Shown: positions 30,582 to 58,490 of the stretch, piece after piece | How the letters are laid out: the number at the start of each line of letters is the position of its first letter | Position numbering within the stretch: position 1 is the stretch's first letter | Source of the DNA: a bacterium | Lineage (GTDB): Bacteria > UBA8248 | DNA: 64,000 nucleotides | Reading direction: 5' to 3' | NCBI GenBank assembly: GCA_965203325.1 | Contig: OZ241875.1 | Coordinates: 3,104,001 to 3,168,000, forward strand | Position numbers and translations under genes: made by a program | The notes under the pieces: generated by a model | What the model saw: only the letters and a program-made list of their open reading frames with translations | Told to the model about the DNA's origin: nothing | Database searches by the model: none

Positions 30582-30596
30582 AGGAGTCATCCCCTT

Positions 30597-31190: not shown

Positions 31191-31240
31191 CGGCGGAATC
31201 AGCGCGCGCCCACGGGCGCGATGGATGCGAAGGAATCCCG

Positions 31241-33561: not shown

Positions 33562-33579
33562 ACACGGAAGGAAACGCAA

Positions 33580-34272
33580 GTGAGCCAGGAGGAATTCAGA
33601 AACATACTCGTCGTCGTCGCCCACCCCGACGATGCGGAACTCTCCGCGGGAGGTAGCATCGCCCGCTGGACGCGGGAGGGCGCGACCGTGCGGACGGTCG
33701 TCTGTACGAACGGGGACAAGGGCACGAAAGATGAGGTCAGCCCCTTCGACCTCGCCAGGATTCGCGAGGCGGAACAACTCGAAGCCTCCCGCATCCTGGG
33801 CGTCAAGGAGACGCTGTTCCTGCGCCACCGCGACGGGGAACTCGAGGACACGCGCGCGTTCCGGAATCAGATCGCCTTCCTGATACGCCACTTCAAGCCC
33901 GACACCATCCTCACCCACGACCCCTGGCGCACCTACTACCAGCACCCCGACCACCAGGCCATCGGCCACGCCACGTTCAAGGCGGTGGTCTACGCGCGGG
34001 ACCACCATTTTCTGCCCGAACTCACCTACGCCGGCATCGGCGCGCACCACACGAAAAATCTCTTGTTCTTGAACACGCGAGAGCCGAATTTCTTCGTGGA
34101 CATCACCGAGACCTTCGATACGAAAGTCCGCGCGGTGTGCGCACACAAGTGCCAGATCAAAAACCCCGAAGCCTTCGAGAAGCGCACCCGTCAGCGGCTC
34201 GAAGACGCAGGCCGCGCGGCGGGCTTCCCGATAGCGGAGTCTTTCGTCATCACGCGGATGCGCGAAGGCTAG
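33580..34272 (+). CDS. PIG-L family N-deacetylase (MshB/BshB/LmbE-like)
   Basis: AHPDDAE, T.GD.G, R..E...A..ILG, HPDH. Confidence 0.88.
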   Translation: MSQEEFRNILVVVAHPDDAELSAGGSIARWTREGATVRTVVCTNGDKGTKDEVSPFDLARIREAEQLEASRILGVKETLFLRHRDGELEDTRAFRNQIAFLIRHFKPDTILTHDPWRTYYQHPDHQAIGHATFKAVVYARDHHFLPELTYAGIGAHHTKNLLFLNTREPNFFVDITETFDTKVRAVCAHKCQIKNPEAFEKRTRQRLEDAGRAAGFPIAESFVITRMREG

Positions 34273-34279
34273 GGCGCAC

Positions 34280-35389
34280 ATGAACGAGGAGACGCCGGAG
34301 ACCAGGGCCGGCCGGCGCATCATGGCCGGTTTCGAGGGAACCGCCGCCCCCTCCTCGCTCCTGGCGCGCGTCCGCGCGGGAAGAGTCGGCGGCGTCATTC
34401 TTTTCCAGCGGAACATCGAGTCCGCTGCGCAGACCGCCGCCCTCATCGCCACTTTGCAAGAAGCCGCCCTCGCCTCGCCGCTCGAAGCTCCTCTTCTCGT
34501 CGGAATCGACCAGGAAGGCGGGCGCGTGAGCAGGCTTTCGGACGATTTCACGATCTTTCCGGCGGCGCGGGGATTCGGCGATGCGGGCGAACCCGCCCTC
34601 GCGCGGGAAGCGGCAAGGGTCACTGGCACTGAATTAGAGGCCATAGGCGTGAACGTCAACTTTGCGCCCGCCGTGGACATTCTCACGAACCCCGAATGCG
34701 CCGTCATCGGCGACCGCGCCTTTGGCGAATCACCCCAAGTCGTGGCCCAAATGGGCGAGGCCGTAACGCAGGGCTTGCAGGAAACGGGCGTCGCCGCGTG
34801 CGCCAAGCATTTCCCCGGCATCGGCGACATGGCCCCCGACCCCCACGAGGTGCTGCCGACCTCACGCCTCACGCTCGACGATCTGAGAACGCGCGAGTTG
34901 GAGCCGTTCCGCCACCTCATCCGCCGCACGCCGCCCGCCTGCGTCATGATCGCCCACGCCGTTTTCGAGGCGATAGACGAAACGACTCCTGCGAGCCTGT
35001 CCCCCGTTTTTCTCCAAAATATCCTGCGCGGAGAACTCGGTTTCAGAGGCGTCGCCGTAACCGACGATCTGGACATGGGCGCGATAGACGACGCCGCAGA
35101 CGCAGCGCTTCAAAGCATCCTCGCCGGGGCGGACATCGCCCTCATCTGCCACTCGGAAGACGCACAGGAACGAGCGGTCGATGCGGTTGCGAAGGCCATC
35201 AGAGACGAACGCCTCCCCCCGGAACAGGAGGAGGTGTCATCGGATCGGATACGCAGACTCAAGGAGAGCTACTGCCGCCCGAACTGGCGGAAGGAGATGC
35301 TCGAAGTTATCGGGTGTGTGGAGCACCGAAGAGCGCACTCGAGAATCCTCGAGGCACTGGAGGTGGCCGAACAGTCAGGGGGTTGTTGA
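34280..35389 (+). CDS. nagZ: Beta-N-acetylhexosaminidase (GH3)
   Basis: GGVILF.RN, DQEGGRVSR, NFAP..D, KHFPG.G...DPH, TDDLDMGA. Confidence 0.85.
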   Translation: MNEETPETRAGRRIMAGFEGTAAPSSLLARVRAGRVGGVILFQRNIESAAQTAALIATLQEAALASPLEAPLLVGIDQEGGRVSRLSDDFTIFPAARGFGDAGEPALAREAARVTGTELEAIGVNVNFAPAVDILTNPECAVIGDRAFGESPQVVAQMGEAVTQGLQETGVAACAKHFPGIGDMAPDPHEVLPTSRLTLDDLRTRELEPFRHLIRRTPPACVMIAHAVFEAIDETTPASLSPVFLQNILRGELGFRGVAVTDDLDMGAIDDAADAALQSILAGADIALICHSEDAQERAVDAVAKAIRDERLPPEQEEVSSDRIRRLKESYCRPNWRKEMLEVIGCVEHRRAHSRILEALEVAEQSGGC

Positions 35390-37332: not shown

Positions 37333-38610
37333 ATGATACAGCCGGGCGCTACATCTTTACGGAAGATCGCGGTTGTCGGGAGAGGAACCGCAGGCTCCCT
37401 TGCGGCCGCCAAGGTCACTCGTCTTCTGCCCGAGAGCGACCATGAGCTGCACCACATATATGACTCGCGTATCCCGGCCCTCGGCGTGGGCGAAGGCAGC
37501 TGGCCGAGCCTGGTTCAGGAATTGCAGGAACTGACGAATCTGCCCCATGAAACCATCCAGCAGCGCTTGAATGGAACGCGCAAGTACGGCGTGACGTTCG
37601 AGGGATGGGGCCGGCGCAACCAGGACTTCACCCACTATTTCACGCCGCAACAGGTGTCCTACGCCTACCACCTGTCCGTCGACTTGATGGCGGACCTGCT
37701 GCATGAAAGCACGCGCGCGCGCCACATCGACGCGAAAGTACTCGATATCACCAGGGTGGAAGGCGGCGCGCAAGTGGAATTCGAGGGCCTGCCGCCGGAG
37801 CGCTACGACCTGGTTTTCGATGCTCGCGGATTTCCCCGAGAACTCGATCCCGAACGGCACATCGAACTCTCTTTCATTCCCACCAATACAGCCGTCATCC
37901 GCCGCTGTCCGGCAATCGTCGAAGCAGAGCAGGACGGACCGGTTCTGCAACCTACCTATACCCGGGCGGTTGCGCGTCCGCATGGTTGGATAGTCGTTAT
38001 TCCGCTTACGGCACACACATCCTACGGGTACGTCTTCAACCGAGACGTATCCGGCCTTGACGAAGTCGAATCGGACTTTGACGCTTTCCTCGAAAGCGAC
38101 GGCGTGTCGGAATTCGAGCAGCGCGCCGTCATTCCGTTTCCCAATTTCGTCCACCGCCGGATATTCGACGGCGCGGTAGTCCGCATCGGCAACGCAGCCG
38201 CTTTCATGGAACCCCTCGAAGCAACGGCGATCGTATCCGGACAGGTGGAGGTCGGGATGGCTCTCCAAATACGCCTGAACCGTTCGGCAGACCATCTCGA
38301 GCGTGACGCGCCGGTGGTCAATCGATTCCTCATCAACAACATGCTCTGCTTCGGCTTGTTCGTCGGTTGGCACTATTCCTGCGGCTCGAAGTACGATAGC
38401 GAATTCTGGAGATACGCCCGCGACCACGCCTGGCCGCAGCATCGAAAGGTGGCGGACCCTGAGTTCGTGGATTGCGACGCGCTCCGCAAATTCGACGAAA
38501 TGATTGAACTGAAGAACCAGTCGATCATTGACAAATCGGACTGGAATCGGACGTTGGCGTACTTCCCTCTCTCCTGTTATTGCCAGATGTCCCAGGGGCT
38601 GGGCTGCTAG
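37333..38610 (+). CDS. srpI: Flavin-dependent halogenase (tryptophan halogenase family), likely peptidyl-Trp halogenase
   Basis: GRGTAG FAD motif, GVGEG, catalytic Lys region GTRKYGV.F.GW, GWIVVIPL, GNAAAFMEPLEAT; context of an LCCCW precursor. Confidence 0.8.
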   Translation: MIQPGATSLRKIAVVGRGTAGSLAAAKVTRLLPESDHELHHIYDSRIPALGVGEGSWPSLVQELQELTNLPHETIQQRLNGTRKYGVTFEGWGRRNQDFTHYFTPQQVSYAYHLSVDLMADLLHESTRARHIDAKVLDITRVEGGAQVEFEGLPPERYDLVFDARGFPRELDPERHIELSFIPTNTAVIRRCPAIVEAEQDGPVLQPTYTRAVARPHGWIVVIPLTAHTSYGYVFNRDVSGLDEVESDFDAFLESDGVSEFEQRAVIPFPNFVHRRIFDGAVVRIGNAAAFMEPLEATAIVSGQVEVGMALQIRLNRSADHLERDAPVVNRFLINNMLCFGLFVGWHYSCGSKYDSEFWRYARDHAWPQHRKVADPEFVDCDALRKFDEMIELKNQSIIDKSDWNRTLAYFPLSCYCQMSQGLGC

Positions 38611-44829: not shown

Positions 44830-46131
44830 ATGAAGAAACCCTTTGACGCAGCGGATTCCCTTGTGTCGCGGGCCGGCGAGGACGACGACTTCAGGGAGCG
44901 TCTTCTCGCCAAACCCAAAGAGACCATCGAAGCGGAATTCGGCGTGACGATGGCCGAAGGCCACGAGATTCACGTGCACGAAGACACCTATGCCGAGACG
45001 CACCTCGTCCTTCCGCCGCGCAGCAAATTCACCGAGGCGGAACGGGAGGAGGCGAGAACCGGTGCGGAATCTCTCGATTTCCTTCGCAAAACCATGCACG
45101 ACCCCGCGCCGCCCCTCCGTCCGCCCGTCGTTCAGGGGGAGATGGCCCCGAAGGCCGCCGCCACCGCCGAGGCGCTTGCGAAAGCGGGCAGAGAAGCCAT
45201 CCGCCGCGGTCTCGATTTCCTGGAATCCACGATAGACGAAAACGGCGCTTGGCACTGCATCCGGTTCAACGTGGCCGATCCGGAGGTGCCGCGGCATTTC
45301 GAAAGACCTCCCTTCGTATCGGCTTTCTGCGTCCTCGCCCTGGAATGCTGCGAGGAAGCGCGCGCCAGGGCCATCTGCGCCGCGAGCAGGGCGTATCTCG
45401 CCGACACGGTCGAATATCCCGGATTCTGGCGCTATTACCGCCATCTGCCCCCGGATCTCGACAGCACCGCACTGTGTTCACTCGTGATTGGCGCTCATCC
45501 CTGGATTTTGCTGGGGAGGAACGTTCCGCGGATACTGGCGAACCGCGACGAGGAAGGCCGCTTCATGACCTGGGTTCTCGAAGACGACGAACCCGATGTC
45601 GTGTCGCCCTTTCGCATCGAAGCCGACCCCGTGGTCAATGCGAACGTCATCGCCTGTCTCGGCGGCCACCCTGAAACCAAAGATGCCCGGCGATGGCTGG
45701 AAGCCCTGATAACCGAGGGCAATCTCGCGGGCTCCTCCAAATGGTATCCCGACGAGGTCGCCATCTATTATGCGGCCGCCCGCGCCATGGTCCGCGCACG
45801 GCCCGCTCTCGATCGGCTGCGCCCGGTACTGGCGGAGCGCATCCTGGGCTTGCGGGACGAGGAGGGGGATTTCGGCAATATCCTCCAAACGGCGCAGGCC
45901 GTCTCGGCGCTCCACCACGCGGGACGCCTCGACAGCATCGACGCGAAGCGCATGGTGGAGAGGTTCACGGGTTCGCAGCGTGAGGACGGTAGCTGGCCGG
46001 AACTCCTCGCGTTCGGCGACCAGACGCTGAAGTGGGGCGCGGTAGGGCAGATAGGGCATGGCTCCGAAGCCCTGACCACGGCGTTTTGCATCGAAGCACT
46101 CGAGCGTCTCGTCGCAGTCTTGGGGGCCTGA
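44830..46131 (+). CDS. NHLP-leader domain fused to a prenyltransferase/squalene-hopene cyclase-like alpha/alpha barrel
   Basis: N-terminal D.DFRERLL..PK..IE...G.......I.VHE......HLVLPP; PPDLDSTA; QW-like repeats ENGAW, RDEEGRF, RDEEGDF, SQREDGSW. Confidence 0.8.
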   Translation: MKKPFDAADSLVSRAGEDDDFRERLLAKPKETIEAEFGVTMAEGHEIHVHEDTYAETHLVLPPRSKFTEAEREEARTGAESLDFLRKTMHDPAPPLRPPVVQGEMAPKAAATAEALAKAGREAIRRGLDFLESTIDENGAWHCIRFNVADPEVPRHFERPPFVSAFCVLALECCEEARARAICAASRAYLADTVEYPGFWRYYRHLPPDLDSTALCSLVIGAHPWILLGRNVPRILANRDEEGRFMTWVLEDDEPDVVSPFRIEADPVVNANVIACLGGHPETKDARRWLEALITEGNLAGSSKWYPDEVAIYYAAARAMVRARPALDRLRPVLAERILGLRDEEGDFGNILQTAQAVSALHHAGRLDSIDAKRMVERFTGSQREDGSWPELLAFGDQTLKWGAVGQIGHGSEALTTAFCIEALERLVAVLGA

Positions 46132-46213: not shown

Positions 46214-48610
46214 ATGCCACAAAGCCCGGTTGTAGGTGGTGGCTCCGATTCGAGCAACGCCGGCGCCGCTCAGCCTATCGAGCCGTCCATCCTGACCGCC
46301 ATTCCGCATTATCTGCCGTTGGTCGTTTTTCCGCTGATTCTTCTCGGCGCGCTCTATGGCGGCTGGTGGCTGTTGCCGCCGCTCGTCTTTATGAGTCTGG
46401 CCGGGGCGCTCGATCGGGCGCTGGGCCGGGACGGACAAACCATGGATCCGGTGAAAACGCCGGAACACCGCCTGTTCTGGCACAATCTGCCGGTCTGGTC
46501 GTGGTCGTTTCTGTGGCCGCCGACGCTCGTTTTCGGTATGTGGCAAATCCTGGCGGCGGATCAATTCTCATGGTGGGAAGGCGTGCTCCTGGCGGTCATC
46601 CTGACGATGGAAGCGCAAGCCGTGTTCGTCGTCGGCCACGAGATGATTCATCGGCGCACGACCTGGGAGCGCCGGGTCGGCGAGTTCCTGCTCGCCTCCG
46701 TCTCCTATCCGCAGTACGCGACGGAACACGTCTATATCCACCATGCCCTGGTCGGCACGCCCTACGACGTGGGTTCCGCCCCGAAGGGGGAGAGTTTCTG
46801 GAAGTATTTCCCCAAGGAAGTCGTCAGCAACCTCGTCCATTCCTGGGAAGTCGCGGGAGAACGCCTGGCGCGGCGCCGTCTGCCCGTCTGGCATTACGAC
46901 AATCCGTTCTGGCGCTACGCGATAGGCGTCGCGTTCTGGTACGCGCTGGTGTACTGGATGGGCGGGATCTGGGCCGTTCCGGTCTTTATCTTCCTCGGCC
47001 TGTCCTGCGTCTTTTCGATGAAGATGAGCAACTACTTTCAGCACTACGGCCTGCGGCGGGTCCGCCTGGAGAACGGTCGCTGGGAAAAGGCGATGCCGCG
47101 CCATTCCTGGAGCGCCGACTGGAAGTTCAGCAACTGGATGTTTTTCAACATGCAGCGTCATGCGGACCATCACGCGGTGGCGTCGCGCCAGTATCCCCTG
47201 CTGCAGGTCAGCGGCCTCGATGAGTCGCCGGAACTGCCGGGAACCTACGCCGACATGATGAACATCGTGCTGCGGCCCAAGCGCTGGTTCGAGAAGATGG
47301 ACCCGCTGGTGGACCAGTGGCGCGAGCATTTCTATCCGGATATCGACGACTGGAGCCCCTACGACAGCCCGATTGCCGCGGCGCGGCCCGACGCCTTCGA
47401 CGCGATACTCGAGATATTCGGCGCCGCCCCGCGGCTCGCGAAATGGATTGAGCGGAATCCGGAGCTTCTGGATAACCTGCAGGACCAGGAATTCCTCGAT
47501 CTCGACCTGCCGAAAGGGTTCGGGCCGGATGCGGAATACGAAGCGATTGCGCGGCGCGGGCTGGCGAGAGTCTACTGGACGTACGAAATGGACGTTCCGG
47601 AATTGAAGGGTCTGGTCGCCGAACTGCCGGTGGCCGACGCGAGGGAAACCGCCGAGATTGTGCGGAACTGGTCGAACGACAAGGCGTTTCAGATCGGCAT
47701 GCACGTCATGCGCGGAAACCTGCTGCCGGCGGAAGCGAGTACGGCGCTCTCGAATCTCGCCGAAGCATCGATTTCGACCGTGCTCGCCTCCGTGGTCGCG
47801 GATTACGTCGACCGCTTCGGGACGCTCAGCGTGGGCGGCGTCGCCGCCGTTTTCCTGGGCGATCTGGCCAGCCGGGAAGCATACCCCGGCGTTGGAATCG
47901 AAATGCTGATCCTACACAACGGCCGTCAGTCCGGCGAAAATGAACGCATGTTCGGGAGCTTCCGAAAGTCGCTGAGCGACCTGTCGCAGGACAGCCTGTT
48001 GTTCTCCCCGGTCCCGCACGGCTCGAATTCCATTCCTGCGTTGACGCTTTCCGATCTGGCCGAGAGTTTCGGAAATTCGACTTCCGGCGAGGTTCCCGCC
48101 CTCACCAGGGCGCGTTGCGCCTTCGAGTATGAAGGTTCCGATATCGCAGACCGCTTCGAGGAGGCGCGGCGCCGGATACTGACCGAATACAGCGCGAACA
48201 GGTCTTTGCCCGACTGGTTGCGCGAGTGGACCGAAGAGGGCGCCGAAAAAAACGTGTCCGCATACGCCCGGATGCGCGGCGGGCTGAACGATGTCGAGAA
48301 GGCCGCGCGCTACCTGCAGTTGGAGCGCGGCGGAAGCTTCCTCGACGACCCGGCGCCGAGCGCTGCGGCGGTGTTCGATGCCGCCGGCGCCGAACCGCTG
48401 GCGCAAGCCGCGGTCATGTGGCGGGATTTGCAGGGCGTCATGCGCCTCGTCGGCGAGGAAGGGTTCGACGCGGCGGCGGGGGGGACGAAGGTCAAATCCC
48501 TGATTGCGAACGCTTGCGGGCAGGAGGATTTCGATGTGCTGGCGTCGGCGGTCACCGAAACCGCATCCGTCGCCGCCGCCCGGATCGATACGCTTTTTTC
48601 GCGCACATAA
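46214..48610 (+). CDS. AlkB/fatty-acid-desaturase-type di-iron membrane enzyme fused to a degenerate GlnE-like nucleotidyltransferase domain
   Basis: His boxes HEMIHR, EHVYIHH, NYFQHYG, QRHADHH; C-half LSNLAE, RGGL.DVE..A.YLQL. Confidence 0.82.
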   Translation: MPQSPVVGGGSDSSNAGAAQPIEPSILTAIPHYLPLVVFPLILLGALYGGWWLLPPLVFMSLAGALDRALGRDGQTMDPVKTPEHRLFWHNLPVWSWSFLWPPTLVFGMWQILAADQFSWWEGVLLAVILTMEAQAVFVVGHEMIHRRTTWERRVGEFLLASVSYPQYATEHVYIHHALVGTPYDVGSAPKGESFWKYFPKEVVSNLVHSWEVAGERLARRRLPVWHYDNPFWRYAIGVAFWYALVYWMGGIWAVPVFIFLGLSCVFSMKMSNYFQHYGLRRVRLENGRWEKAMPRHSWSADWKFSNWMFFNMQRHADHHAVASRQYPLLQVSGLDESPELPGTYADMMNIVLRPKRWFEKMDPLVDQWREHFYPDIDDWSPYDSPIAAARPDAFDAILEIFGAAPRLAKWIERNPELLDNLQDQEFLDLDLPKGFGPDAEYEAIARRGLARVYWTYEMDVPELKGLVAELPVADARETAEIVRNWSNDKAFQIGMHVMRGNLLPAEASTALSNLAEASISTVLASVVADYVDRFGTLSVGGVAAVFLGDLASREAYPGVGIEMLILHNGRQSGENERMFGSFRKSLSDLSQDSLLFSPVPHGSNSIPALTLSDLAESFGNSTSGEVPALTRARCAFEYEGSDIADRFEEARRRILTEYSANRSLPDWLREWTEEGAEKNVSAYARMRGGLNDVEKAARYLQLERGGSFLDDPAPSAAAVFDAAGAEPLAQAAVMWRDLQGVMRLVGEEGFDAAAGGTKVKSLIANACGQEDFDVLASAVTETASVAAARIDTLFSRT

Positions 48611-48643: not shown

Positions 48644-50962
48644 ATGCCAACCCAGACGAAACGGAATCCCCCACGCGGGATATTGACGAAAACGACGCCT
48701 GCGGACCAGGGCCTCGTCGAGCTCCCCGCGCTCACCCCGCACCTGCAGTTCCGCGAAATCGACGAACGGCAGACGCTGCTGGTTTCCGAGTCGTTCGATA
48801 CGCTGCTGCACGGCGGCCTGTATGGCGATCTGCTGCCGCTTCTCGACGGCCGTCACCCGCATAACGAGATCGCCGCCGCCCTCGATGGCCGCCACCCCGC
48901 CGCCGATGTTCACGCGGCGATTGTTTCGCTCTCCGCCAGAGGCTATGTCGTCTCCGCCGATCATGGCATGGAACGGCCCCGGGCGGCCTACTGGTCGTCG
49001 CTCGGCGCATCGCCCCGCTGGGTCGAAGGGCGGCTGGCGCAGTCGCGAGTCGCGGTCGAAGGTGACGACGGCCGCCTCGTCCGGCACCTGGAAGAGGCCG
49101 GCATCGATATGGCGACCGGCGACCCCAAGCTCACCGTTGTCGTCTGCGAGGATTATCTCGACACACGGCTTGCAGAGGTGAACCGGCGCGCGCTCGAGGC
49201 GGGAGCGCCGTGGATGCTGGTGCGCCCGCGCGGAATGGAGGCGCTGTTCGGGCCCGTCTTTCGCGCGGATAAAGAAGGGCCCTGCTGGGAGTGCCTGGCT
49301 TGCCGCCTGCGCTGCCATAAGGAGGTCCACAATTTCCTGCGCAACTTCGCCGGTGAGGAAGCCGCCTTCAAGCCGTTCGCCGCCGAGTCCGGGGTCCTGG
49401 AGTCGCTGTACGGAATGATCGCGGCGGAGATCGTCAAATGGCTGGTGCTGGATGAGGCGGCCCCGATTCACGAGAACGCGATAGCGATGAACCTCGCCGC
49501 GTTCGAAAGTTCCAGGCATCCGGTGATGCGCCGCCCGCAGTGCCCCGCCTGCGGCGATGAGTCGCTCTATCGGCCGGACCGGCCGCCGGCGCCGCTTTGT
49601 CTGAGAGCGAGTCCCAAAACCCATCGCAACAGCGGCGGCGCGCGGGCCGTGACGCCCGAAGCGACCCTGGCGAAATACCGCCACCTGGTGAGCCCTGTCG
49701 GCGGGGTCGTTACATGGCTCGCGCGCACGACCGATGAGAGCGACTCCTGGCTGCACGTCTATTGGGCCGGGAGCAACCCCGGGGCGAGAAGCCGGAGCCT
49801 GAGTTCGCTCAGGCGCAGTTTGCGCAGCAAGAGCGCGGGCAAGGGCAGCACGCGGGAACAATCCGAGGCCAGCGCCCTGTGCGAGGCTATCGAGCGTTAC
49901 TCGGGCGCCTGGTGCGGAGACGAAATCTGCATCCGCAGGCGGTTCAACGACCTGGCTGCGGAAGAGGCGGCAATCCATCCCAACGATGTGCAGTTGTTCA
50001 GCGATTATCAGCTCGACAACGCGGAGAGCATCAACGCGAAAGGCCACCCGTACAACATCGTCCCGCCGCGTCTCGACCCCGATGCCGAAATCGACTGGAC
50101 CCCGGTCTGGTCGTTCACGCAGCGGCGGCATCGCTATCTGCCGACGTCGATGCTCTACAGCATGTCTCCCGAAGGGCGCGGCGGCGCCGATCTGATTGCC
50201 GACTCCAACGGCTGCGCCGCGGGGAACACCCTGGAGGAGGCCATCCTGCAGGGCTTCTATGAACTGGTCGAGCGCGATGCGTTCGCCATCTGGTGGTATA
50301 ACCGACTGAGAGCGCCCGGGGTCGATCTTTGCGGCTTTGACGACGAATTCCTCGCCTCGGCCGCGGGGTACTACGGCCGCTGCGAGCGGGAAGTGTGGAT
50401 GCTCGACGTTACCTCCGATATCGGGATTCCTTCGTTCGTCGCGCTATCGCGCAGACCGGACGCGGACACCGAGGACATCATATACGGCGCAGGCGCCCAT
50501 GCCGACCCGCGGCTGGCGGCCCTGCGCGCGGTTTGCGAGCTGAACCAGTGCCTTACCTGGCTGCCGCGTCCCGGCGGGGGCGACGGCAAGCCCATGATCG
50601 ACGATCCGCTGGCGCTCAGTTGGTGGAAGACGGCTCGACTTGCCGATTGTTCCTGGCTGGCGCCGGCACCGGACGCGCCGCTCAGGCAAGGCTCGCACTA
50701 TCCGGTGATCGAATCGGCGGACACGCGCGACGACGTGGAGCATTGCCGGGCGTTGGTGGAAGCCAAAGACATGGAGTTCCTCGTGCTGGACCAGACCCGG
50801 CCGGACATCGGGATGCCGGTTGCGCGGGTCATCGTGCCGGGCATGCGCCATTTCTGGGCGAGATTCGCGCCCGGGCGCCTCTACGACGCGCCCCTCGACA
50901 TGGGACGCCGCGAACACCCCCTGGCCGAAGCTGATTTGAATCCCGCGCCCGTGATCGCGTAA
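48644..50962 (+). CDS. srpC: Fused leader-binding (E1-like)/YcaO cyclodehydratase
   Basis: GP.F......CWECL..RL, RRPQCPACG, SAGKG, SALCEAIERYS, SNGCAAG, ELVERDA, RAVCEL, RVIVPGM, C-terminal NPAP. Confidence 0.92.
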   Translation: MPTQTKRNPPRGILTKTTPADQGLVELPALTPHLQFREIDERQTLLVSESFDTLLHGGLYGDLLPLLDGRHPHNEIAAALDGRHPAADVHAAIVSLSARGYVVSADHGMERPRAAYWSSLGASPRWVEGRLAQSRVAVEGDDGRLVRHLEEAGIDMATGDPKLTVVVCEDYLDTRLAEVNRRALEAGAPWMLVRPRGMEALFGPVFRADKEGPCWECLACRLRCHKEVHNFLRNFAGEEAAFKPFAAESGVLESLYGMIAAEIVKWLVLDEAAPIHENAIAMNLAAFESSRHPVMRRPQCPACGDESLYRPDRPPAPLCLRASPKTHRNSGGARAVTPEATLAKYRHLVSPVGGVVTWLARTTDESDSWLHVYWAGSNPGARSRSLSSLRRSLRSKSAGKGSTREQSEASALCEAIERYSGAWCGDEICIRRRFNDLAAEEAAIHPNDVQLFSDYQLDNAESINAKGHPYNIVPPRLDPDAEIDWTPVWSFTQRRHRYLPTSMLYSMSPEGRGGADLIADSNGCAAGNTLEEAILQGFYELVERDAFAIWWYNRLRAPGVDLCGFDDEFLASAAGYYGRCEREVWMLDVTSDIGIPSFVALSRRPDADTEDIIYGAGAHADPRLAALRAVCELNQCLTWLPRPGGGDGKPMIDDPLALSWWKTARLADCSWLAPAPDAPLRQGSHYPVIESADTRDDVEHCRALVEAKDMEFLVLDQTRPDIGMPVARVIVPGMRHFWARFAPGRLYDAPLDMGRREHPLAEADLNPAPVIA

Positions 50963-50971
50963 GGAAGCCAT

Positions 50972-52090
50972 ATGGATATCGACGAAGCAATCACGCTTAC
51001 CCAGGACCGTCTCGCCGAAGAAGGCGGCGCCATGGGAGATTTGCTCGGGCGCTTTCGGGGCAGGATTTCACCGGTTCTGATCGGAGATCCGGGGTGGGAG
51101 CGCATACTCGAATGCGCCGGGAAACTCCCAATCACCATGGGCGCCCAGCCGTTCGGTTTCGAGCTGCCTCTGCATGACGCTCGACCGGTGGCGGATTTCG
51201 GCGTCTCGCTGGCGAGCGGAAACCGCTCGGGTGATTTTTTCGAAGAGCGGGCGCGGACCGACGAGACGGACGAGACCGCGAGAGCGGTCGGGCGGCTGTT
51301 CCGGGAAATGGAAGCTCCGAACTCGCCCCTGCGGGAGATTGTGGGACGCAAGTTGATGCTGGAATACGACATAGATTCCGCGCCGGGCGGTAACAATCCG
51401 CTTCCCGGAATGTTCCTGCGGCCCAACGAGCGCACGTTATACGGCGGCGCAGGCCTCCAGAATGATATCGGAATCGTGGTGGACGCCCTCGTTTCCTGCG
51501 TCGGCTGGGAAAGGAATGCCGCTGAACGGGAAAACGCCGAACGGGTTTATCTGGCCCAGCCCGAAGACACGCGCCTGGATTCGTTCGGGGTATTCCCGTC
51601 CCGGGAACGCACAATCCGCCTGGCGATCATGGACTTCAAATCGCAGGGGGAAGTATGCCGCTATCTTGAAAACACGGGTTGGCCGGGTGATATATCGGCC
51701 GTCGAGTCCGTGATTTCACGCTTCCGGGAACGCGCGGATATCGTCAGAACCGGATTGAATATCGACGTGCGCGAAGAGGGTGTCGGTCCGGCGCTCGGCC
51801 TGACGCTTATCGTCAAACACAGATATACGAAAGATTCACGTTCTTGGCTCGACGGCCTGACCGATTGGGACGCATTTCTGGAAGCCTTGCGCCATGAGGA
51901 CCTTGTCGTTCCGGAGAAGGTTGAGGCGCTTGCCGAGTGGGTTTCAAAACCGACGACGCTTTTTGCCAAATCCGGGCCATTTTTACTGTTGCGGGGCATT
52001 CACCACATCAAGCTGGTCATATCCGGAGATCGGCTCAGGCAGGTCAAGGCCTATGTGTTCATGGTGCTTTCCGGAGCGGTCTCGGTTTGA
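50972..52090 (+). CDS. Hypothetical RiPP-cluster protein, possible ABBA-type prenyltransferase
   Basis: Co-operonic with YcaO; FGFE.PL.....ADF, LMLEYD, HHIKL....KAY; fold assignment is inference only. Confidence 0.55.
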   Translation: MDIDEAITLTQDRLAEEGGAMGDLLGRFRGRISPVLIGDPGWERILECAGKLPITMGAQPFGFELPLHDARPVADFGVSLASGNRSGDFFEERARTDETDETARAVGRLFREMEAPNSPLREIVGRKLMLEYDIDSAPGGNNPLPGMFLRPNERTLYGGAGLQNDIGIVVDALVSCVGWERNAAERENAERVYLAQPEDTRLDSFGVFPSRERTIRLAIMDFKSQGEVCRYLENTGWPGDISAVESVISRFRERADIVRTGLNIDVREEGVGPALGLTLIVKHRYTKDSRSWLDGLTDWDAFLEALRHEDLVVPEKVEALAEWVSKPTTLFAKSGPFLLLRGIHHIKLVISGDRLRQVKAYVFMVLSGAVSV

Positions 52091-52203: not shown

Positions 52204-52455
52204 CTACCAGCAGCAGCAAAGGCCGGCCGAGACGGCTTCGAGTTGCTCCTCGGTGATGTTCGGATCCGGCGGCAACGCAATATGCACCGTCTGCATGTCG
52301 CTCTCATGGACCACGACATTCATCGAGTCGGGAATCGTGATGCCCAATTCCCCACAGATGGTCCCCTTCGGGTCTGAGAGCAGCTGTTGCCTGAAATCTG
52401 CGTCCAGGGCGGATTTCTCGACAATCTGCTTCAACATTTCATCGCCACTTCTCAT
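52204..52455 (-). CDS. srpE: NHLP-leader (proteusin) RiPP precursor, core LCCCW
   Basis: D.DFRQQLLSDPK, VVVHE....VHIALP, ITEEQLEAVSAG cleavage motif followed by LCCCW-stop; RBS AAGGAGGT. Confidence 0.93.
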   Translation of the reverse strand: MRSGDEMLKQIVEKSALDADFRQQLLSDPKGTICGELGITIPDSMNVVVHESDMQTVHIALPPDPNITEEQLEAVSAGLCCCW

Positions 52456-53109: not shown

Positions 53110-54303
53110 TCAGCGTTTGTTTCTATCCTTCCATCCGGGCATCGGCAGCTTGTAGGTAACTTCCGCAAGTTCTTTCGGCCAGACGATTCTGCGCCTGCCG
53201 TCGAGAATCTGGAACGTCAGGCCGTCCCGTTCGTTGAGGTTGTTCTCATCCACCTTCCATCTTCCCATCACGGTCTGGAACGCCGAGGCGCGTAGCGTCT
53301 TCCAGACTTTTTGGCGATCATGGGAACCTGCTTTCAGAATCGCCTGACTCACCACCTCTATCGCCCCGTAAGCCATGGCGACATGATCGCTCGGCTTCAC
53401 CCCGTAGCGCTTCTCGTAGGAGTCGATGAGTTCTCTCATGCCCGGAAACTTCAGGGCGTCGGGTTGCGGCTCCCACTGGCTGAAGCCCAGAACATACTCA
53501 GCCGTGGCGCCGAGTTGCTCGGCGAATTTAGGGAGACCGGGGCCGATGGTTCCGGCGAAAATCTTGAAGTTGATGTTGAGCTCCCTGAGTTGGCGAATCT
53601 GCGCGGCGGCGTCCGCGAAGTAGCTGTTCGAGAAAAGCGCCTCCGCCCGGCGCGCCTTGATTTTTTGCAGCAGCGCTGTGAAGTCGGTCTGCTTGCGCGG
53701 ATAGTTCTCGTTCAGCACCACTTTAAGGCCGAGTTTCTTCGCCCACTCCACGGCGCCCTCCGCCGACTGCCGGGGGAAGAGGCTGTCCTCGCCGATGATG
53801 GCGATTCGCTTCACCCCGATGTCCCTGGCGAGGTGCAGCGCGCCCTTGTGGTTTTTTTGGGCTACGGCATTTTGGTTGAAAAGGTATTTTCTGCCCTTCT
53901 CCCACAGCCCTCTGGAGGAAGCGCCCGGCGCCAGCGTGGGGTATTCGTGCCTTTCAAAGAGGTTGGCCACCGCGTCGGTGATGCCGCTGGAGTAGGGGCC
54001 GAGCGTGAAATGGATCTTCTCCTGCGTGATGAGCCTCTCGTAGAGCTTGATGCTGGTCTGCTTGTCCGATTTATCGTCCAGGAGAATCAGTTTCACCTTC
54101 TTGCCCAGCAGGCCGCCCCTGGCGTTTTGCCGGTCGGCGAACAGACGGTAGGCGTTGACGAACCGGCCTGCCGGCTCCGCGTAACGGCCCGTATGGGAGA
54201 TGGACCCGCCGATGGTGATTTCATCTGACGCCAGGGCCGAACCGGTGAGGAGCGTCGCCGTCCCCAGGAACGCGATTGCCATGAAGCTTCGATTCACTTT
54301 CAT
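53110..54303 (-). CDS. Branched-chain amino acid-type ABC substrate-binding protein (orphan)
   Basis: Signal peptide, S.TG.YA, N.RGGLLGKKVKL..LDD.SD, LGPYSS, TDFTALL.KIK. Confidence 0.88.
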   Translation of the reverse strand: MKVNRSFMAIAFLGTATLLTGSALASDEITIGGSISHTGRYAEPAGRFVNAYRLFADRQNARGGLLGKKVKLILLDDKSDKQTSIKLYERLITQEKIHFTLGPYSSGITDAVANLFERHEYPTLAPGASSRGLWEKGRKYLFNQNAVAQKNHKGALHLARDIGVKRIAIIGEDSLFPRQSAEGAVEWAKKLGLKVVLNENYPRKQTDFTALLQKIKARRAEALFSNSYFADAAAQIRQLRELNINFKIFAGTIGPGLPKFAEQLGATAEYVLGFSQWEPQPDALKFPGMRELIDSYEKRYGVKPSDHVAMAYGAIEVVSQAILKAGSHDRQKVWKTLRASAFQTVMGRWKVDENNLNERDGLTFQILDGRRRIVWPKELAEVTYKLPMPGWKDRNKR

Positions 54304-54395
54304 CTTCCATCTTCCTCGGAATAAGGGATACATGAAGAATCGTTCGCGACGCGCCCGGCTGCGCAGCCGGACACTCGCCCGGGCGAGCGTTTGAA

Positions 54396-56087
54396 TCAGA
54401 AAACCGGCGTTTCCCGGTAGGTGCCCCAGACCGACTTCAGTTTCTCGACGATATCGCCCATCGTTGCGCCCGCGCGCACGAGTTCCACCGTGACGGGCAT
54501 GATGTTCCGCGTCTCGTCCCTGGCGACCGAGACGAGCTCCTCCAGAAGCGTCCCGACCCTGGCGTTGTCGCGTTCGGCGCGCACCCTCCTCGTCCGCGCG
54601 ATCTGCCGGTCGGCGGTCGAGGAATCATAGGGATGGGTCTCGATCTCGTGGTTTTCGTCCTCCTCGACCAGGGTGTTGACCCCGATGACCGGCTTTTCAC
54701 CGGATTGCTTGCGCAGGGCGGTCTCGTAGGCGAAGTCGGCGATCTGCTTCTGGAACCAGCCTTCCTCGATCAATTTAATCGCGCCGCCGTTTTCATCCAC
54801 ATAGTCGAGAATCTCGAAAATGCGCGTCTCGTACTCGTTGGTCAGGCTCTCGAGGTAGTAGGAACCGCCCAGCGGATCGATGACGTTGGTGACGTTCGTT
54901 TCCTCCGCGATGACCTGCTGCGTGCGCAGGGCCAGCCGCATGGCGTCCTCGGTCGGAATCGCGAACGCTTCGTCGTAGCCGTTCGTGTGCAGCGACTGGC
55001 AGCCGCCGAGGACCGCGGCGAGGGCCTGGAACGCGGTGCGCACGATGTTGATCCGGAATTGCGGCTTGGTGAGGGTGGCGGCCGCGGTCTGGCAATGGAA
55101 ACGGAGCCGCATCGATTCGGGGTTCTTCGCGCCGAAGCGCTCTTTCATGATCCTGGCGTAACAGCGGCGCAGCGCCCGGAACTTGGCGACCTCCTCGAAC
55201 AGGTCCGCCTGCGAGACGTAGAAGAAACCAAGCCTCGGCGCGAACTCGTCGACGCTCATCCCGGTCTTCAGCACCTCCTCCACATAGACGATCAGGTTGC
55301 ACATGGTGAAGGCGGCCTCCTGCAAAGGCGAGGCGCCGGCTTCTGAGATGTGATAGCCCGAGATGTTGATCGGGTTGTAGCGCTTCATGTTGCGGCCGCA
55401 GAAGGATATGCAGTCGCGCACGATGCGGACAGACGGCGCGATCGGGTAGATGAACTCCTTCTGCGCAATATATTCCTTGAGTATGTCCGCCTGGATGGTG
55501 CCCGAGAGCCTGTTCAGGTCGAGGCCGCGTTTCTCGGCCAGCGCCACATACATGGCGAGCAGTATCCAGGCGCTGGGGTTGATGGTCATCGATACGGAGA
55601 TGTTCTCGAGATCGATGCCGTCGTAGAGCGCCTCCATGTCGGCGAGCGTATCCACGGCCACGCCTTCGCGGCCCACCTCGCCATCGCTCATCGGGTGGTC
55701 GGAGTCGTAGCCCATGAGCGTGGGCATGTCGAAGTCGGTCGACAGTCCCGTCTGCCCCTGTGAGATCAGGTATTTGAAGCGTTTGTTGGTGTCCTCACCT
55801 GTGCCGAAACCGGCGATCTGGCGCATGGTCCACACCCGGCTGCGGTACATCGTCGGGTAGGGCCCGCGCGTGAAGGGATAGCGCCCCGGCAGGCCGATAT
55901 CCTCGAGCGGCGTTTCCGCAACATCGGCGGCGGTGTAGACGCGCTGCACCGGGAAATCGCCGGTCGTGAAGAACTGCTCCTTGCGCTCGGCTTGTTTGTT
56001 CAGGAAGGCGGCGACCTCTTTGCTCTCCCAATCCTCGATCTCGCTCAGGAGTTTCTCAAGCGGATTTTGAGTGAACGTCTCGTTCAT
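54396..56087 (-). CDS. hcmA: B12-dependent acyl-CoA mutase large subunit, 2-hydroxyisobutyryl-CoA mutase type
   Basis: PFTRGPYPTMY, TMRQIAGFG (Ile at the specificity site), STDFDMPT, SGYHI.EAG, QSLHTN. Confidence 0.82.
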   Translation of the reverse strand: MNETFTQNPLEKLLSEIEDWESKEVAAFLNKQAERKEQFFTTGDFPVQRVYTAADVAETPLEDIGLPGRYPFTRGPYPTMYRSRVWTMRQIAGFGTGEDTNKRFKYLISQGQTGLSTDFDMPTLMGYDSDHPMSDGEVGREGVAVDTLADMEALYDGIDLENISVSMTINPSAWILLAMYVALAEKRGLDLNRLSGTIQADILKEYIAQKEFIYPIAPSVRIVRDCISFCGRNMKRYNPINISGYHISEAGASPLQEAAFTMCNLIVYVEEVLKTGMSVDEFAPRLGFFYVSQADLFEEVAKFRALRRCYARIMKERFGAKNPESMRLRFHCQTAAATLTKPQFRINIVRTAFQALAAVLGGCQSLHTNGYDEAFAIPTEDAMRLALRTQQVIAEETNVTNVIDPLGGSYYLESLTNEYETRIFEILDYVDENGGAIKLIEEGWFQKQIADFAYETALRKQSGEKPVIGVNTLVEEDENHEIETHPYDSSTADRQIARTRRVRAERDNARVGTLLEELVSVARDETRNIMPVTVELVRAGATMGDIVEKLKSVWGTYRETPVF

Positions 56088-57060
56088 GGTCTCCCTCCCA
56101 TTCGAGCGTCGTCGAGAGCAATTCCTCCGCCAGGGAATAGGGGTCGCTCTCCCGGCGCATGAGCTGTTCGGCGAGTTTCGCGCTCGCCGCAGCCGTGGCG
56201 GCGTTGAATCGATCATATAACAGATTTTCAGCGGTCTTGCGCAGCCGGAATTCCGCGATGCTCTTGCGCCGCGCGCGGCCCGCATCGGTATTCGACGTCA
56301 CCTCGCGATGCCGGGCAATCGCTTCGAGCAACTCGTCGATCCCTTCTCCGGAAACAGCGCTGGTGCCGATGACGGGGACGGCCCGGTCGGATGGTTCGCC
56401 CCCGTGGGTTCCGAGTGTCAGCATCTGCTTCAAATCGGTCAGCGTCCGGTTGGCGTCGCTGCGGTCGCACTTCGACACGACGTGGATGTCGGCGATCTCC
56501 AGAAGGCCCGCCTTGATCGCCTGGACCTCGTCGCCCAAGCCGGGTGCGGAAACCACGACCGTGGTGTGGGAGGCCCGCACGATCTCGACCTCGTCCTGGC
56601 CCACGCCGACGGTTTCGAGAATGATCACCCCGAAACCGGCGGCATCGAGGATATCGGCCGCCTCGAGCGCCGCGCGCGCCATGCCGCCGGTCGCCCCGTG
56701 CGTCGCCATGCTGCGGATATAAACGCCGGAGTCGGCGCTCAAGTCGCTCATGCGGATTCGGTCTCCCAGGATGGCGCCGCCCGAATAGGGAGAGGACGGA
56801 TCGATAGCGATGATGCCGACCTTCTCGCCGCCGGCGCGCAGCCTTTGCGCCAGCCCGCTTACGAGCGTGGATTTTCCGCTGCCGGGCACCCCGGTGATGC
56901 CGACGAGGTGCGCTCGTCCGGCCAGTCTGTGGATGCGGGCGAGTGCGTCGCGCGGTTCCGCCAGGCCCGACTCCGCGCGCGATATGAGGCGGCCGATCGC
57001 GGCCGGCTCGCCAGATTGAACGCGGGCGATGAGTTCCACCGAAGGGACGTAGGCGCCCAT
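56056..57060 (-). CDS. meaH: MeaB-like GTPase chaperone
   Basis: GITGVPGSGKST, IDPSSPYSGGAILGDRIRM, ETVGVGQ, QAIKAGLLEIAD. Confidence 0.85.
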   Translation of the reverse strand: MGAYVPSVELIARVQSGEPAAIGRLISRAESGLAEPRDALARIHRLAGRAHLVGITGVPGSGKSTLVSGLAQRLRAGGEKVGIIAIDPSSPYSGGAILGDRIRMSDLSADSGVYIRSMATHGATGGMARAALEAADILDAAGFGVIILETVGVGQDEVEIVRASHTTVVVSAPGLGDEVQAIKAGLLEIADIHVVSKCDRSDANRTLTDLKQMLTLGTHGGEPSDRAVPVIGTSAVSGEGIDELLEAIARHREVTSNTDAGRARRKSIAEFRLRKTAENLLYDRFNAATAAASAKLAEQLMRRESDPYSLAEELLSTTLEWEGDHERDVHSKSA

Positions 57061-58490
57061 CAGCGGTTTTCGTCATCCAGTTGTGTCTGCATTTCCTGAA
57101 AGACAGCGCGATCGTCGATGACGCGGCGCGCCTTGAAATCCGTTCGGGGGATCGAGCCCGGCTCGACGATCTCCACGCCCGTCCGCAGCCCGAGCACCTT
57201 CTGCAATTTGTGCGCAACCTCGGTGCAGAACCGGGCGGCGCCGTCCGCGTCGGCGAAGGTCTCGGTGTCGGCCTCGACGCGCAGCAGCAACTCGTCCATC
57301 GCCGCCTCGCGGCTGATCACGATCCGGTGCTCTCCGCCGTAGTGCGCGAGTTCGTTGAGCGCGGCGTCTATCTCGCTGGGATACACGTTCTCGCCCCGGA
57401 TCGTGAACATGTCGTCGATGCGCCCGAAAATACCGTGCGGCAGGCGTGGATAGGTGCGCCCGCACGGGTTCGGTTCGTCCACCCAGCGGGTCAGGTCCCC
57501 CGACGCCAGGCGGATCATCGGCTGGGAGGCGCGTTCGAGATGGGTGTACACGGGCGTTCCCCGTTCCCCGTAGGGGACCCGGCGCATGGTTTCGGGGTCG
57601 CACACTTCCGTGTAGACGACGTCCTGCCAGCAGAGCATTCCGTCCGTCTCGGCCGAACTCGCCACGTTCATCCATGGGCTCATCTCGGCCATGGAGCCGC
57701 TGTCGAAAACCCTGGCCCCATAGAGCCCCTCGATGCGCTCGCGGATGGCCGGTATCGAGGCGCCGGGCTCGCCGGAGAAGAACATGATCTTGAGCTGCAT
57801 GTCGCGGGGGTCCAGTCCCTCGTCTTCCGCGACCTGGGCGAGGTGCAAGGCGTAGGTCGGCGTGCCGTAGAAGGCGGTGGGCTTCAGCATGTCGAGCCAT
57901 TGCACGCAGCGCGCCGACATGCCGGACGCGCCGGCGCCGAAGGGGAAGGCTTTCGCGCCGAGGCGTTCCGCGCCGGCGAGCGCCCCCCAACTCCCCATAT
58001 AGAGGGAAAACACGGCGGCGACGCAAATCGTGTCGCCGGGGCGCAGGCCCATGCCCCACATGATGCGCGCATGCGCGTTGGCTATGGCGCGCCAGTCGCC
58101 CTGCGAGATGGCGAAGGCGGTGGGCCGCCCGGTCGTGCCGCTGGTGCCGTGGATGTGAAAGACTTCCGTTTCGTCCACGCAGAGGTAATCGCCGAAGGGC
58201 GGATGGCGCTCCTGCGCCTCGCGCAGGTCCTGCTTGGTGAGGACCGGGACTTTCTCCTCGAAGTCCTCGAGCGACTTGAGCCGGCTCGGGTGGAAACCGG
58301 CCTCATCCCATTTGCGGCGGTAGAGGGCCGCGTTCTCGTAGGCGTAGGCGCAGACTTGCCGGAGGCGCTCCAGGATGGCCTTCTCCCGGTCTCTCGCCGG
58401 CATCGTCTCCCGCCGGGGGAACCAGTAGCGGCTGCCCGGAGGCGGAAGAAAATCCTCATCGTATTCAGGTGGGAATGACCAGGACTCCAT
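57060..58490 (-). CDS. Phenylacetate-CoA ligase family, likely 2-hydroxyisobutyrate-CoA ligase
   Basis: HGTSGTTGRP, GTPTYAL, SGEPG, IR..SGD, GRIDDM..IRGENVYPS; lies inside the mutase operon. Confidence 0.8.
   Translation of the reverse strand: MESWSFPPEYDEDFLPPPGSRYWFPRRETMPARDREKAILERLRQVCAYAYENAALYRRKWDEAGFHPSRLKSLEDFEEKVPVLTKQDLREAQERHPPFGDYLCVDETEVFHIHGTSGTTGRPTAFAISQGDWRAIANAHARIMWGMGLRPGDTICVAAVFSLYMGSWGALAGAERLGAKAFPFGAGASGMSARCVQWLDMLKPTAFYGTPTYALHLAQVAEDEGLDPRDMQLKIMFFSGEPGASIPAIRERIEGLYGARVFDSGSMAEMSPWMNVASSAETDGMLCWQDVVYTEVCDPETMRRVPYGERGTPVYTHLERASQPMIRLASGDLTRWVDEPNPCGRTYPRLPHGIFGRIDDMFTIRGENVYPSEIDAALNELAHYGGEHRIVISREAAMDELLLRVEADTETFADADGAARFCTEVAHKLQKVLGLRTGVEIVEPGSIPRTDFKARRVIDDRAVFQEMQTQLDDENR

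What the first reader, a model, noticed from the sequence alone, without database searches (positions are those of the whole stretch)
46214..48610. AlkB-like di-iron enzyme fused to a catalytically degenerate GlnE domain inside a RiPP operon
Seen: all four AlkB His motifs, with NYFQHYG in place of NYxEHYG. A C-half of about 400 aa has LGDLASREAYPGVGIEM where GlnE has MGKLGGxE...SDLD, so the metal-binding Asp pair is lost. No rubredoxin is nearby. Inference: a membrane desaturase or hydroxylase for a lipophilic peptide or terpene moiety, or a substitute thiazoline oxidase, with the dead NTase domain acting as a binding scaffold.
Basis: partly seen in the sequence, partly recalled or inferred. 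Interest (0 to 1): 0.7.

Follow-up and report, generated by a model that had tools for sequence, protein, structure and literature searches.

The report
Peptide-cluster iron oxidase with GlnE relic
A membrane iron oxidase of the alkane-hydroxylase type, carrying an inactivated half of a nitrogen-control enzyme, is a real but untested gene of a published marine peptide gene cluster, and the same inactivated half also hangs on efflux pumps and on relatives outside peptide clusters, so it looks like a portable module, not a peptide-specific invention.

Summary
The ORF is real: an AlkB fold with nine invariant His, plus a GlnE adenylyltransferase half. It lies in the published srp proteusin cluster (core LCCCW), whose tested enzymes do not include it. 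The scan has reported this fusion on at least nine other windows.

Corrections and additions:
- Only the first Asp and the DxRLRP motif are lost family-wide. The second acidic residue is mostly kept.
- Gln276 is not the diagnostic change. Position 270 is K/R in 38 of 38 fusions and E in 83 of 83 stand-alone AlkBs.
- The fusion is not RiPP-restricted: a sister clade sits in sulfotransferase/RND loci.
- The same dead half is fused to AcrB-like pumps. Both types share an insertion with one GlnE paralogue clade.
- Selection is strong on residues 377-540 (dN/dS 0.10) and relaxed on the NTase core (0.39).
- Five related genomes have a cluster without the gene and keep one copy elsewhere.

Best reading: an O2-dependent tailoring oxidase, most likely acting on a prenyl group added by the neighbouring ABBA-fold protein (about 0.4). 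Thiazoline desaturation and C-terminal decarboxylation are live rivals. The chemistry is inferred, not shown.

The parts
46214..48610 (+). The fusion gene, 798 aa (srpB if the letters follow gene order; that name is my inference)
46289..47341 (+). AlkB-type membrane di-iron domain, residues 26-376, with nine His; dN/dS 0.116
47021..47050 (+). K270-x-x-N-Y-x-Q276-H-Y-G. K/R270 marks all fusions; Q276 replaces FtAlkB Glu271 in most
47342..47833 (+). GlnE-derived helical region, residues 377-540; dN/dS 0.103, as constrained as the catalytic domain
47501..47575 (+). Insertion of about 27 aa (tested on residues 430-454), shared with RND fusions and one GlnE paralogue clade, absent from canonical GlnE
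47834..48193 (+). Degenerate nucleotidyltransferase core, residues 541-660 (motif 548-567 at 47855-47914); dN/dS 0.39
48194..48607 (+). GlnE C-terminal helical domain, residues 661-798; dN/dS 0.62; missing in many shorter homologues
37333..38610 (+). Flavin-dependent halogenase (SrpI type)
   Evidence: PF04820
39022..44754 (+). Short HlyD-like gene and two NHLP export ABC transporters, the first with a C39 peptidase
   Evidence: TIGR03796 over cut-off, TIGR03797 and TIGR03794 under
44830..46131 (+). NHLP-like domain fused to a class II terpene-cyclase-like domain, with invariant D209-L-D211
   Evidence: weak hits, E 1e-6 to 3e-3
48644..50962 (+). YcaO cyclodehydratase (SrpC type), 33 bp after the fusion
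50972..52090 (+). 372-aa protein with a predicted ABBA prenyltransferase fold; no Pfam or NCBIfam hit
52204..52455 (-). NHLP precursor, 252 bp, with ITEEQL and core LCCCW (SrpE type)

Best explanation
The gene encodes a membrane-bound, O2-dependent di-iron tailoring oxidase of the srp pathway. YcaO makes thiazolines in the Cys run and the halogenase brominates Trp (both shown in print for the srp enzymes). The ABBA-fold protein adds a prenyl group, which the class II cyclase may cyclise in clusters that have one (inferred). The AlkB half then hydroxylates or desaturates that short lipophilic group from the membrane side, with electrons from a host ferredoxin system because no rubredoxin is present (inferred). 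The GlnE half transfers no nucleotide. It came once from an insertion-bearing GlnE paralogue, before the enzyme entered peptide clusters, and is kept for its helical region 377-540 as a structural, docking or regulatory cap. Odds: tailoring oxidase of this pathway about 0.8; prenyl or terpenoid group as the substrate about 0.4 overall; dead NTase about 0.95.
For: Nine His invariant, 200 of 200; AlkB and GlnE folds. YcaO in 79 of 80 and the ABBA protein in 75 of 80 fusion loci, all five misses at contig ends, whereas the cyclase domain is really missing in 5 loci with 10 kb of upstream DNA. ABBA fold: every listed Foldseek row for the pLDDT-92 model is an aromatic or indole prenyltransferase. 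F59 (F 182, Y 16 of 200) aligns with FtAlkB Ile54, where bulky residues shorten the accepted chain. The basic residues of the FtAlkB donor-docking face are mostly kept: R148, R153, R217, R289, K292; Arg169 becomes Tyr. Stand-alone copies nest inside the RiPP clade (support 99), and 5 of 5 genomes carrying the main stand-alone group hold an srp-type YcaO plus ABBA gene elsewhere without the fusion; in two of them the cyclase runs straight into YcaO. That fits rescue in trans. Single origin of the dead half: AlkB-fused (39) and RND-fused (17) halves form one clade, support 100, also under a mixture model; three alternative groupings were rejected at p-AU 0.011, 0.044 and 0.012. Insertion present in 39 of 39, 17 of 17 and 12 paralogues, and in 0 of 29 canonical GlnE.
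Against: No activity is shown for this protein or for the ABBA protein. In one genome with a split cluster the fusion travels with YcaO and the halogenase, not with the ABBA gene (L266, L292). ABBA paralogues occur beside NHLP precursors without any fusion, three of them in this genome. The family-wide E-to-K/R change at 270 suggests a polar or anionic substrate group more than a plain hydrocarbon (inference). The five clusters without the gene could equally mean it is dispensable; they come from one order and may be one or two events. The 80 loci are the best 80 of 151, so they are biased to close relatives. The trees are quick SH-aLRT trees, and two fast-evolving dead domains can attract each other. 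dN/dS rests on 8 close, non-independent sequences, and dS in the last region is oddly low (0.14).
Confidence: 0.4

Rival explanations
1. Substitute azoline oxidase: the di-iron centre desaturates the YcaO-made thiazolines to thiazoles, in place of the usual FMN-dependent dehydrogenase.
For: No azoline oxidase among the window's cluster genes. The gene sits 33 bp before YcaO and stays with it when a cluster splits (L266). The Cys run is the near-constant part of the cores seen: LCCCW, LCCCL, RCCCC plus I/A/F/W, RCCC, LCCCGI, LTCSW. Published srp work reports thiazolines from SrpC alone (PMC10286304).
Against: The sister clade works in sulfotransferase loci without YcaO. The AlkB tunnel is narrow, hydrophobic and entered from the membrane. 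I found no precedent. I did not scan every related locus for a flavin oxidase.
Confidence: 0.2
2. UndB-like oxidative decarboxylase: K/R270 holds the C-terminal carboxylate of the core near the irons, and the last residue leaves as an enamide (or as a terminal thiazole).
For: K/R at 270 in 38 of 38 fusions against E in 83 of 83 stand-alone AlkBs, and loss of the Glu271 equivalent in 32 of 38. UndB is a di-iron enzyme of the same superfamily that decarboxylates fatty acids using ferredoxin (PMC11204201). Cores end one or two residues after the Cys run. Bromoindole enamides in marine invertebrates are recalled, not looked up.
Against: The position of residue 270 relative to the substrate was not measured (no model coordinates were available to scripts). 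K/R270 is also present in the sulfotransferase-locus clade, so it predates the peptide substrate. Six fusions keep Glu at 276, including five RiPP loci with RCCCC cores.
Confidence: 0.15
3. The GlnE half is a live regulatory module: it senses nitrogen status (PII or glutamine) or binds glutamine synthetase, and gates the membrane enzyme or pump it is attached to.
For: One dead half is kept on two unrelated membrane proteins. The constrained stretch lies at the GlnE regulatory/adenylyltransferase junction (alignment to 3k7d; that GlnE binds PII and glutamine is recalled). Six of 12 insertion-bearing full-length paralogues have also lost AT catalysis while keeping the N-half motif. The genome has two PII genes.
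Against: No binding was tested. Most of the regulatory region upstream of the fusion point is missing. The C-terminal part is often truncated and evolves fast. A literature search on GlnE regulation returned nothing.
Confidence: 0.15
4. An ordinary alkane hydroxylase, or a passenger gene with no role in the peptide pathway.
For: Closest solved structures are AlkB. Clusters without the gene exist. The nearest stand-alone relatives carry the label alkane 1-monooxygenase.
Against: Both glutamates typical of stand-alone AlkB are changed. No rubredoxin in the genome. Fixed position in the cluster across Alpha- and Gammaproteobacteria, Acidobacteriota and others. Strong purifying selection.
Confidence: 0.1

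Closest known systems
srp cluster (sponge-derived RiPP proteusins; Nguyen et al. 2021, not readable here; described in PMC10286304, PMC10858898 and bioRxiv 2023.06.09.544420)
   Same: 252-bp NHLP precursor with ITEEQL and core LCCCW, YcaO, flavin halogenase, spread across phyla
   Different: The papers I could read test only SrpC, SrpE and SrpI. They give no function for this fusion, the ABBA-fold protein or the cyclase-like protein. The 2021 paper may already annotate the gene.
AlkB alkane 1-monooxygenase (FtAlkB, PDB 8f6t and 8sbb)
   Same: Fold, nine His ligands, most of the basic donor-docking face
   Different: Glu271 equivalent is Gln; the Glu six residues earlier is Lys; no rubredoxin, fused or in the genome; a GlnE half at the C terminus; biosynthetic context
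GlnE glutamine-synthetase adenylyltransferase, C-terminal half (PDB 3k7d)
   Same: Fold and alignment over about 290 residues (E 1e-22); best NCBIfam model PRK14108, far below its cut-off
   Different: No N-terminal half; GK to GD, first Asp lost, DxRLRP lost; extra 27-aa insertion; an intact GlnE lies elsewhere in the genome
UndB and other desaturase-like di-iron enzymes
   Same: Membrane His-box superfamily that desaturates, hydroxylates or decarboxylates
   Different: AlkB fold, which the FtAlkB paper reports as distinct from SCD1 and Scs7p; no sequence comparison with UndB was run

Membership tests
srp cluster | NHLP precursor with LCCCW core | tested here: met
   LCCCW in 63 of 68 precursor hits in 67 loci
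srp cluster | YcaO cyclodehydratase and flavin halogenase in the cluster | tested here: met
srp cluster | Sequence identity to the published SrpC, SrpE and SrpI | not testable with these tools
   original paper not held; the published sequences were not retrieved
AlkB alkane 1-monooxygenase | Nine His in four motifs and AlkB fold | tested here: met
AlkB alkane 1-monooxygenase | Conserved Glu beside the di-iron site (FtAlkB Glu271; NYxEHYG) | tested here: not met
   Gln in 199 of 200 close sequences; Glu in 83 of 83 stand-alone AlkBs; role of Glu271
AlkB alkane 1-monooxygenase | Rubredoxin partner | tested here: not met
   0 PF00301 matches in a 95.5% complete genome; the control rang in 7 of 14
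AlkB alkane 1-monooxygenase | Terminal hydroxylation of n-alkanes | not testable with these tools
   needs an assay
GlnE adenylyltransferase | Nucleotidyltransferase fold with flanking helical domains | tested here: met
GlnE adenylyltransferase | Catalytic GKxG...DxD and DxRLRP motifs | tested here: not met
   0 of 39 AlkB fusions and 0 of 17 RND fusions, against 27 and 26 of the 31 rows labelled GlnE
GlnE adenylyltransferase | Two-domain AR plus AT architecture | tested here: not met
   only the C-terminal half aligns end to end
Azoline oxidase (SagB/McbC type) | FMN-dependent nitroreductase fold | tested here: not met
   no such match for the fusion or its cluster neighbours; it could only be a functional substitute

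The most novel reading that the evidence does not exclude
The AlkB half is a membrane di-iron enzyme that acts directly on a ribosomal peptide (thiazoline desaturation or C-terminal oxidative decarboxylation) or on its prenyl tail, making the srp product a brominated peptide-terpenoid hybrid. The GlnE-derived half is a portable pseudo-enzyme module, domesticated once from a GlnE paralogue and used as a working regulatory or docking cap on unrelated membrane proteins (AlkB-type oxidases and AcrB-like pumps) in the same bacterial communities.
Probability: 0.3. Interest if true: 0.75.

Novelty: new variant of a known kind. Interest (0 to 1): 0.5.

Why it matters
The srp precursor is among the most highly transcribed biosynthetic genes in sponge microbiomes, and its role is reported as unknown (bioRxiv 2023.06.09.544420). 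Three conserved genes (this oxidase, an ABBA-fold protein and a cyclase-like protein) are untested in the papers I could read, so the brominated tris-thiazoline made in E. coli is probably only an intermediate. Testing this enzyme would define the real product and might add a membrane di-iron enzyme to RiPP chemistry. The two active-site changes give a natural experiment on how AlkB-fold enzymes switch substrate. The shared dead GlnE half on oxidases and pumps is a clear case of a pseudo-enzyme domain reused on unrelated membrane proteins. The parts and the cluster are known kinds, so the score stays moderate.

Tried and rejected
Complex prediction of the fusion (residues 20-798) with the precursor gave no answer (score 0.00, controls not run). 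It is not used for or against binding.

Epoxidase idea: I considered that the short DxD motif of the cyclase-like neighbour needs an epoxidised substrate supplied by the AlkB half. Dropped, because MstE uses DxD on a plain alkene (PMC12414744).

Gln276 as a RiPP-specific mark: rejected. Sulfotransferase-locus fusions also have Gln, and five RiPP-locus fusions keep Glu.

L085 as a cluster without YcaO: not independent, since it shares its halogenase with the srp cluster on the same contig.

Expression: three RNA-labelled runs held only small shares of the gene. Laid contigs cover all 30 bins but are mostly under 95% alike, and contigs cannot show level or strand. No claim is made.

PDB sequence search with the ABBA alignment found nothing relevant; the fold came only from the model. 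The Atlas search of the C-half returned only GlnE/GlnD-type clusters. Scanning 53 of the 150 listed representatives showed no N-terminal partner other than AlkB, AcrB-like or GlnE itself; several had no Pfam match.

Literature: searches returned 0 papers; two searches returned only reviews or unrelated papers (listings only). The 2021 JACS paper could not be opened; its figures and supplement may bear on novelty. The careful mixture tree did not finish, so a quick one was used.

Full report
Observation. Pfam gives FA_desaturase at 120-329 and a weak GlnE match at 397-537. The only PDB sequence hits are the two FtAlkB entries. An AlphaFold model (45 sequences, pLDDT 84, pTM 0.83) has five Foldseek matches at E up to 0.001: AlkB twice, and the GlnE domains 3k7d (two chains) and 1v4a. 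The best 120 of 920 homologues are 72-98% identical over 97-100% of the length, so this is a real gene. All nine His are invariant in 200 of 200 close sequences. The genome (95.5% complete) has no rubredoxin match, has an intact GlnE elsewhere, and has ten Fer2 matches, two of them in short frames.

The cluster is known. The window reads halogenase, HlyD-like gene, two NHLP transporters, NHLP-cyclase fusion, this gene, YcaO, a 372-aa protein and, on the other strand, a 252-bp precursor ending in LCCCW. This is the srp cluster type: the papers describe the LCCCW core, thiazoline formation by SrpC and bromination by SrpI (PMC10286304, first third read; PMC10858898, passages and a supplement term search with no hit), and a highly transcribed 252-bp precursor with ITEEQL (bioRxiv 2023.06.09.544420, passages and one section). 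PMC9426513 (passages) and PMC12615548 (passages) add nothing on this gene. The 2021 paper that defined the cluster was not held; I saw only its citation. Searches for the fusion or for prenyl chemistry in this cluster found no relevant paper. The sponge habitat is taken from those papers, not shown here. The closest named records are titled Nitrospinota (L004, L009).

Linkage to the pathway. Of the best 80 of 151 genome loci, 79 have YcaO and 75 the 372-aa gene; all those misses lie at contig ends. The cyclase domain is present in 71 and really absent in 5. Starting from YcaO in 249 genomes gave 36 matches: 30 with the fusion directly upstream, 4 with it after the 372-aa gene, one broken remnant and one distant YcaO. 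These sets overlap and are kin, so they are not independent. The 372-aa protein has no family hit, but its model (pLDDT 92) matches only ABBA prenyltransferases among the listed rows (Atlas lead). The upstream gene is an NHLP-like domain plus a weakly matching class II cyclase with invariant DxD, the motif MstE uses (PMC12414744, passages). Cores vary (LCCCW in 63 of 68; also LCCCL, RCCCC plus I/A/F/W, RCCC, LCCCGI, LTCSW), so Trp is not required.

The AlkB half is altered. Gln276 aligns with FtAlkB Glu271, which contacts Fe2 and lies 3.2 A from the substrate methyl in one structure (PMC10113152, passages and one section) and is poorly resolved in the other (PMC10110569, passages). Across 38 of 39 fusions with a readable motif, 276 is Gln in 32 and Glu in 6, while 83 of 83 stand-alone AlkB-type proteins have Glu. 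The sharper mark is position 270: Lys or Arg in 38 of 38 fusions, Glu in 83 of 83 stand-alone proteins. Fused AlkB domains form one side of a branch (support 95; 40 of the stand-alone rows were used). F59 corresponds to the chain-length gate and is aromatic in 198 of 200. This argues against an ordinary alkane hydroxylase and for a short or partly polar substrate (inference).

The GlnE half is dead, older than the RiPP link, and shared. It aligns with 3k7d over about 290 residues. The first Asp and DxRLRP are gone, and the second acidic residue is mostly kept. A search of 50%-identity representatives showed the same half on AcrB-like proteins of about 1,520 aa. Searching 50 of the fusion-bearing genomes gave 14 such RND fusions, none with RiPP genes in 14-20 kb, and 6 further AlkB fusions, 3 in RiPP loci and 3 in sulfotransferase/CysNC/MATE/RND loci. 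Twenty more loci, chosen by me from three order-level searches with a bias to weaker scores, gave 10 RiPP loci, 4 sulfotransferase loci and 6 stand-alone copies. An insertion of about 27 aa is present in 39 of 39 AlkB-fused and 17 of 17 RND-fused halves and in 12 full-length GlnE paralogues, but in 0 of 29 canonical GlnE; 6 of the 12 paralogues have lost AT catalysis themselves. Both fusion types form one clade inside that paralogue group (support 100), and three alternative groupings were rejected at p-AU 0.011-0.044, with long-branch attraction as the caveat. Pooled dN/dS over 8 close sequences is 0.116 for AlkB, 0.103 for residues 377-540, 0.39 for the NTase core and 0.62 for the last domain.

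A natural experiment. In a full-length tree the sulfotransferase-locus copies form their own clade (100), apart from a clade of 40 rows (99) holding 32 RiPP-locus copies, 6 stand-alone copies and 2 of unclear context. The five genomes of the main stand-alone group each hold an srp-type YcaO and ABBA gene elsewhere with no fusion beside them. Two are otherwise complete clusters in which the cyclase runs straight into YcaO; the other three are partial. This fits rescue in trans, or dispensability; it is one lineage. The sixth copy is truncated, in a genome where neither gene was found. In another genome the cluster is split and the fusion stays with YcaO, not with the ABBA gene, which counts against my preferred substrate.

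Mechanism. Shown: fold, His ligands, altered residues, dead NTase motifs, linkage and ancestry. From print: thiazolines and bromination. Inferred: prenylation, then oxidation of that group by this enzyme using a host ferredoxin (0.4). Rivals for the chemistry: thiazoline desaturation (0.2), UndB-like decarboxylation (0.15; PMC11204201, passages), ordinary or passenger AlkB (0.1), with the rest for other oxidations of the core. A live nitrogen-sensing role of the GlnE half (0.15) is a separate question.

Novelty and verdict. The cluster and both domain families are known; the combination is undescribed in what I could search but may be annotated in the 2021 paper. It fails defining tests for AlkB and for GlnE, so it is filed as a new variant. 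The scan's own notes report the fusion on at least nine other windows, including the sulfotransferase context; two look-ups for the RND fusion found no note of it. I had reached the srp, prenyltransferase and sulfotransferase readings before seeing those notes. Interest 0.5.

Noticed in passing
L091-L104; P0287, P0301, P0272: AcrB-like RND transporters of about 1,520 aa with the same dead GlnE half at the C terminus, mostly beside an HlyD-type adaptor and often a second RND gene; up to three copies per genome.
   Followed up: partly
L105-L113; P0273, P0289, P0303: A GlnE paralogue clade with a 27-aa insertion, in several genomes beside a canonical GlnE. Six of 12 keep the N-half motif but have lost the AT motif, as if they only remove AMP.
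   Followed up: partly
window 50972-52090: Gene with no family hit whose model has an ABBA prenyltransferase fold; three paralogues lie near other NHLP precursors in this genome (G000:C1 near 1912700, 3702821, 3711013).
   Followed up: partly
window 44830-46131: NHLP leader-like domain fused in front of a single-domain class II cyclase-like protein with invariant DxD; optional in related clusters. Not folded.
   Followed up: partly
L088, L089, L114, L260, L265, L270, L271: Sister AlkB-GlnE fusions in loci with sulfotransferases and, in most, CysNC, MATE or RND genes, pointing to a sulfated small molecule.
   Followed up: partly
L261-L264: Stand-alone fusion between dnaK/dnaJ and an SDR, glutamine-synthetase-like, Rieske dioxygenase operon, on the same strand. 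A GS-like gene beside a GlnE-derived domain may be chance (one lineage; all genes annotated only in L261).
   Followed up: no
P0160, P0217, L024, L040, L252: Signs of decay and mobility: a His-to-Tyr change in the third motif (P0160), an AlkB fragment joined to a precursor (P0217), a Tn3 fragment in frame upstream (L024), interrupted copies (L040, L252).
   Followed up: no
L085 with L026 (one contig); L086, L087: Some genomes carry two related clusters in tandem with different cores (LCCCW plus LCCCL or RCCCCx), each with its own fusion.
   Followed up: partly
window 29412-35389 and 53110-58490: Flanks look ordinary: phosphotransferase, GNAT, glycosyltransferase and GH3 genes on the left; periplasmic binding protein, methylmalonyl-CoA mutase, MeaB and a CoA ligase on the right.
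   Followed up: no
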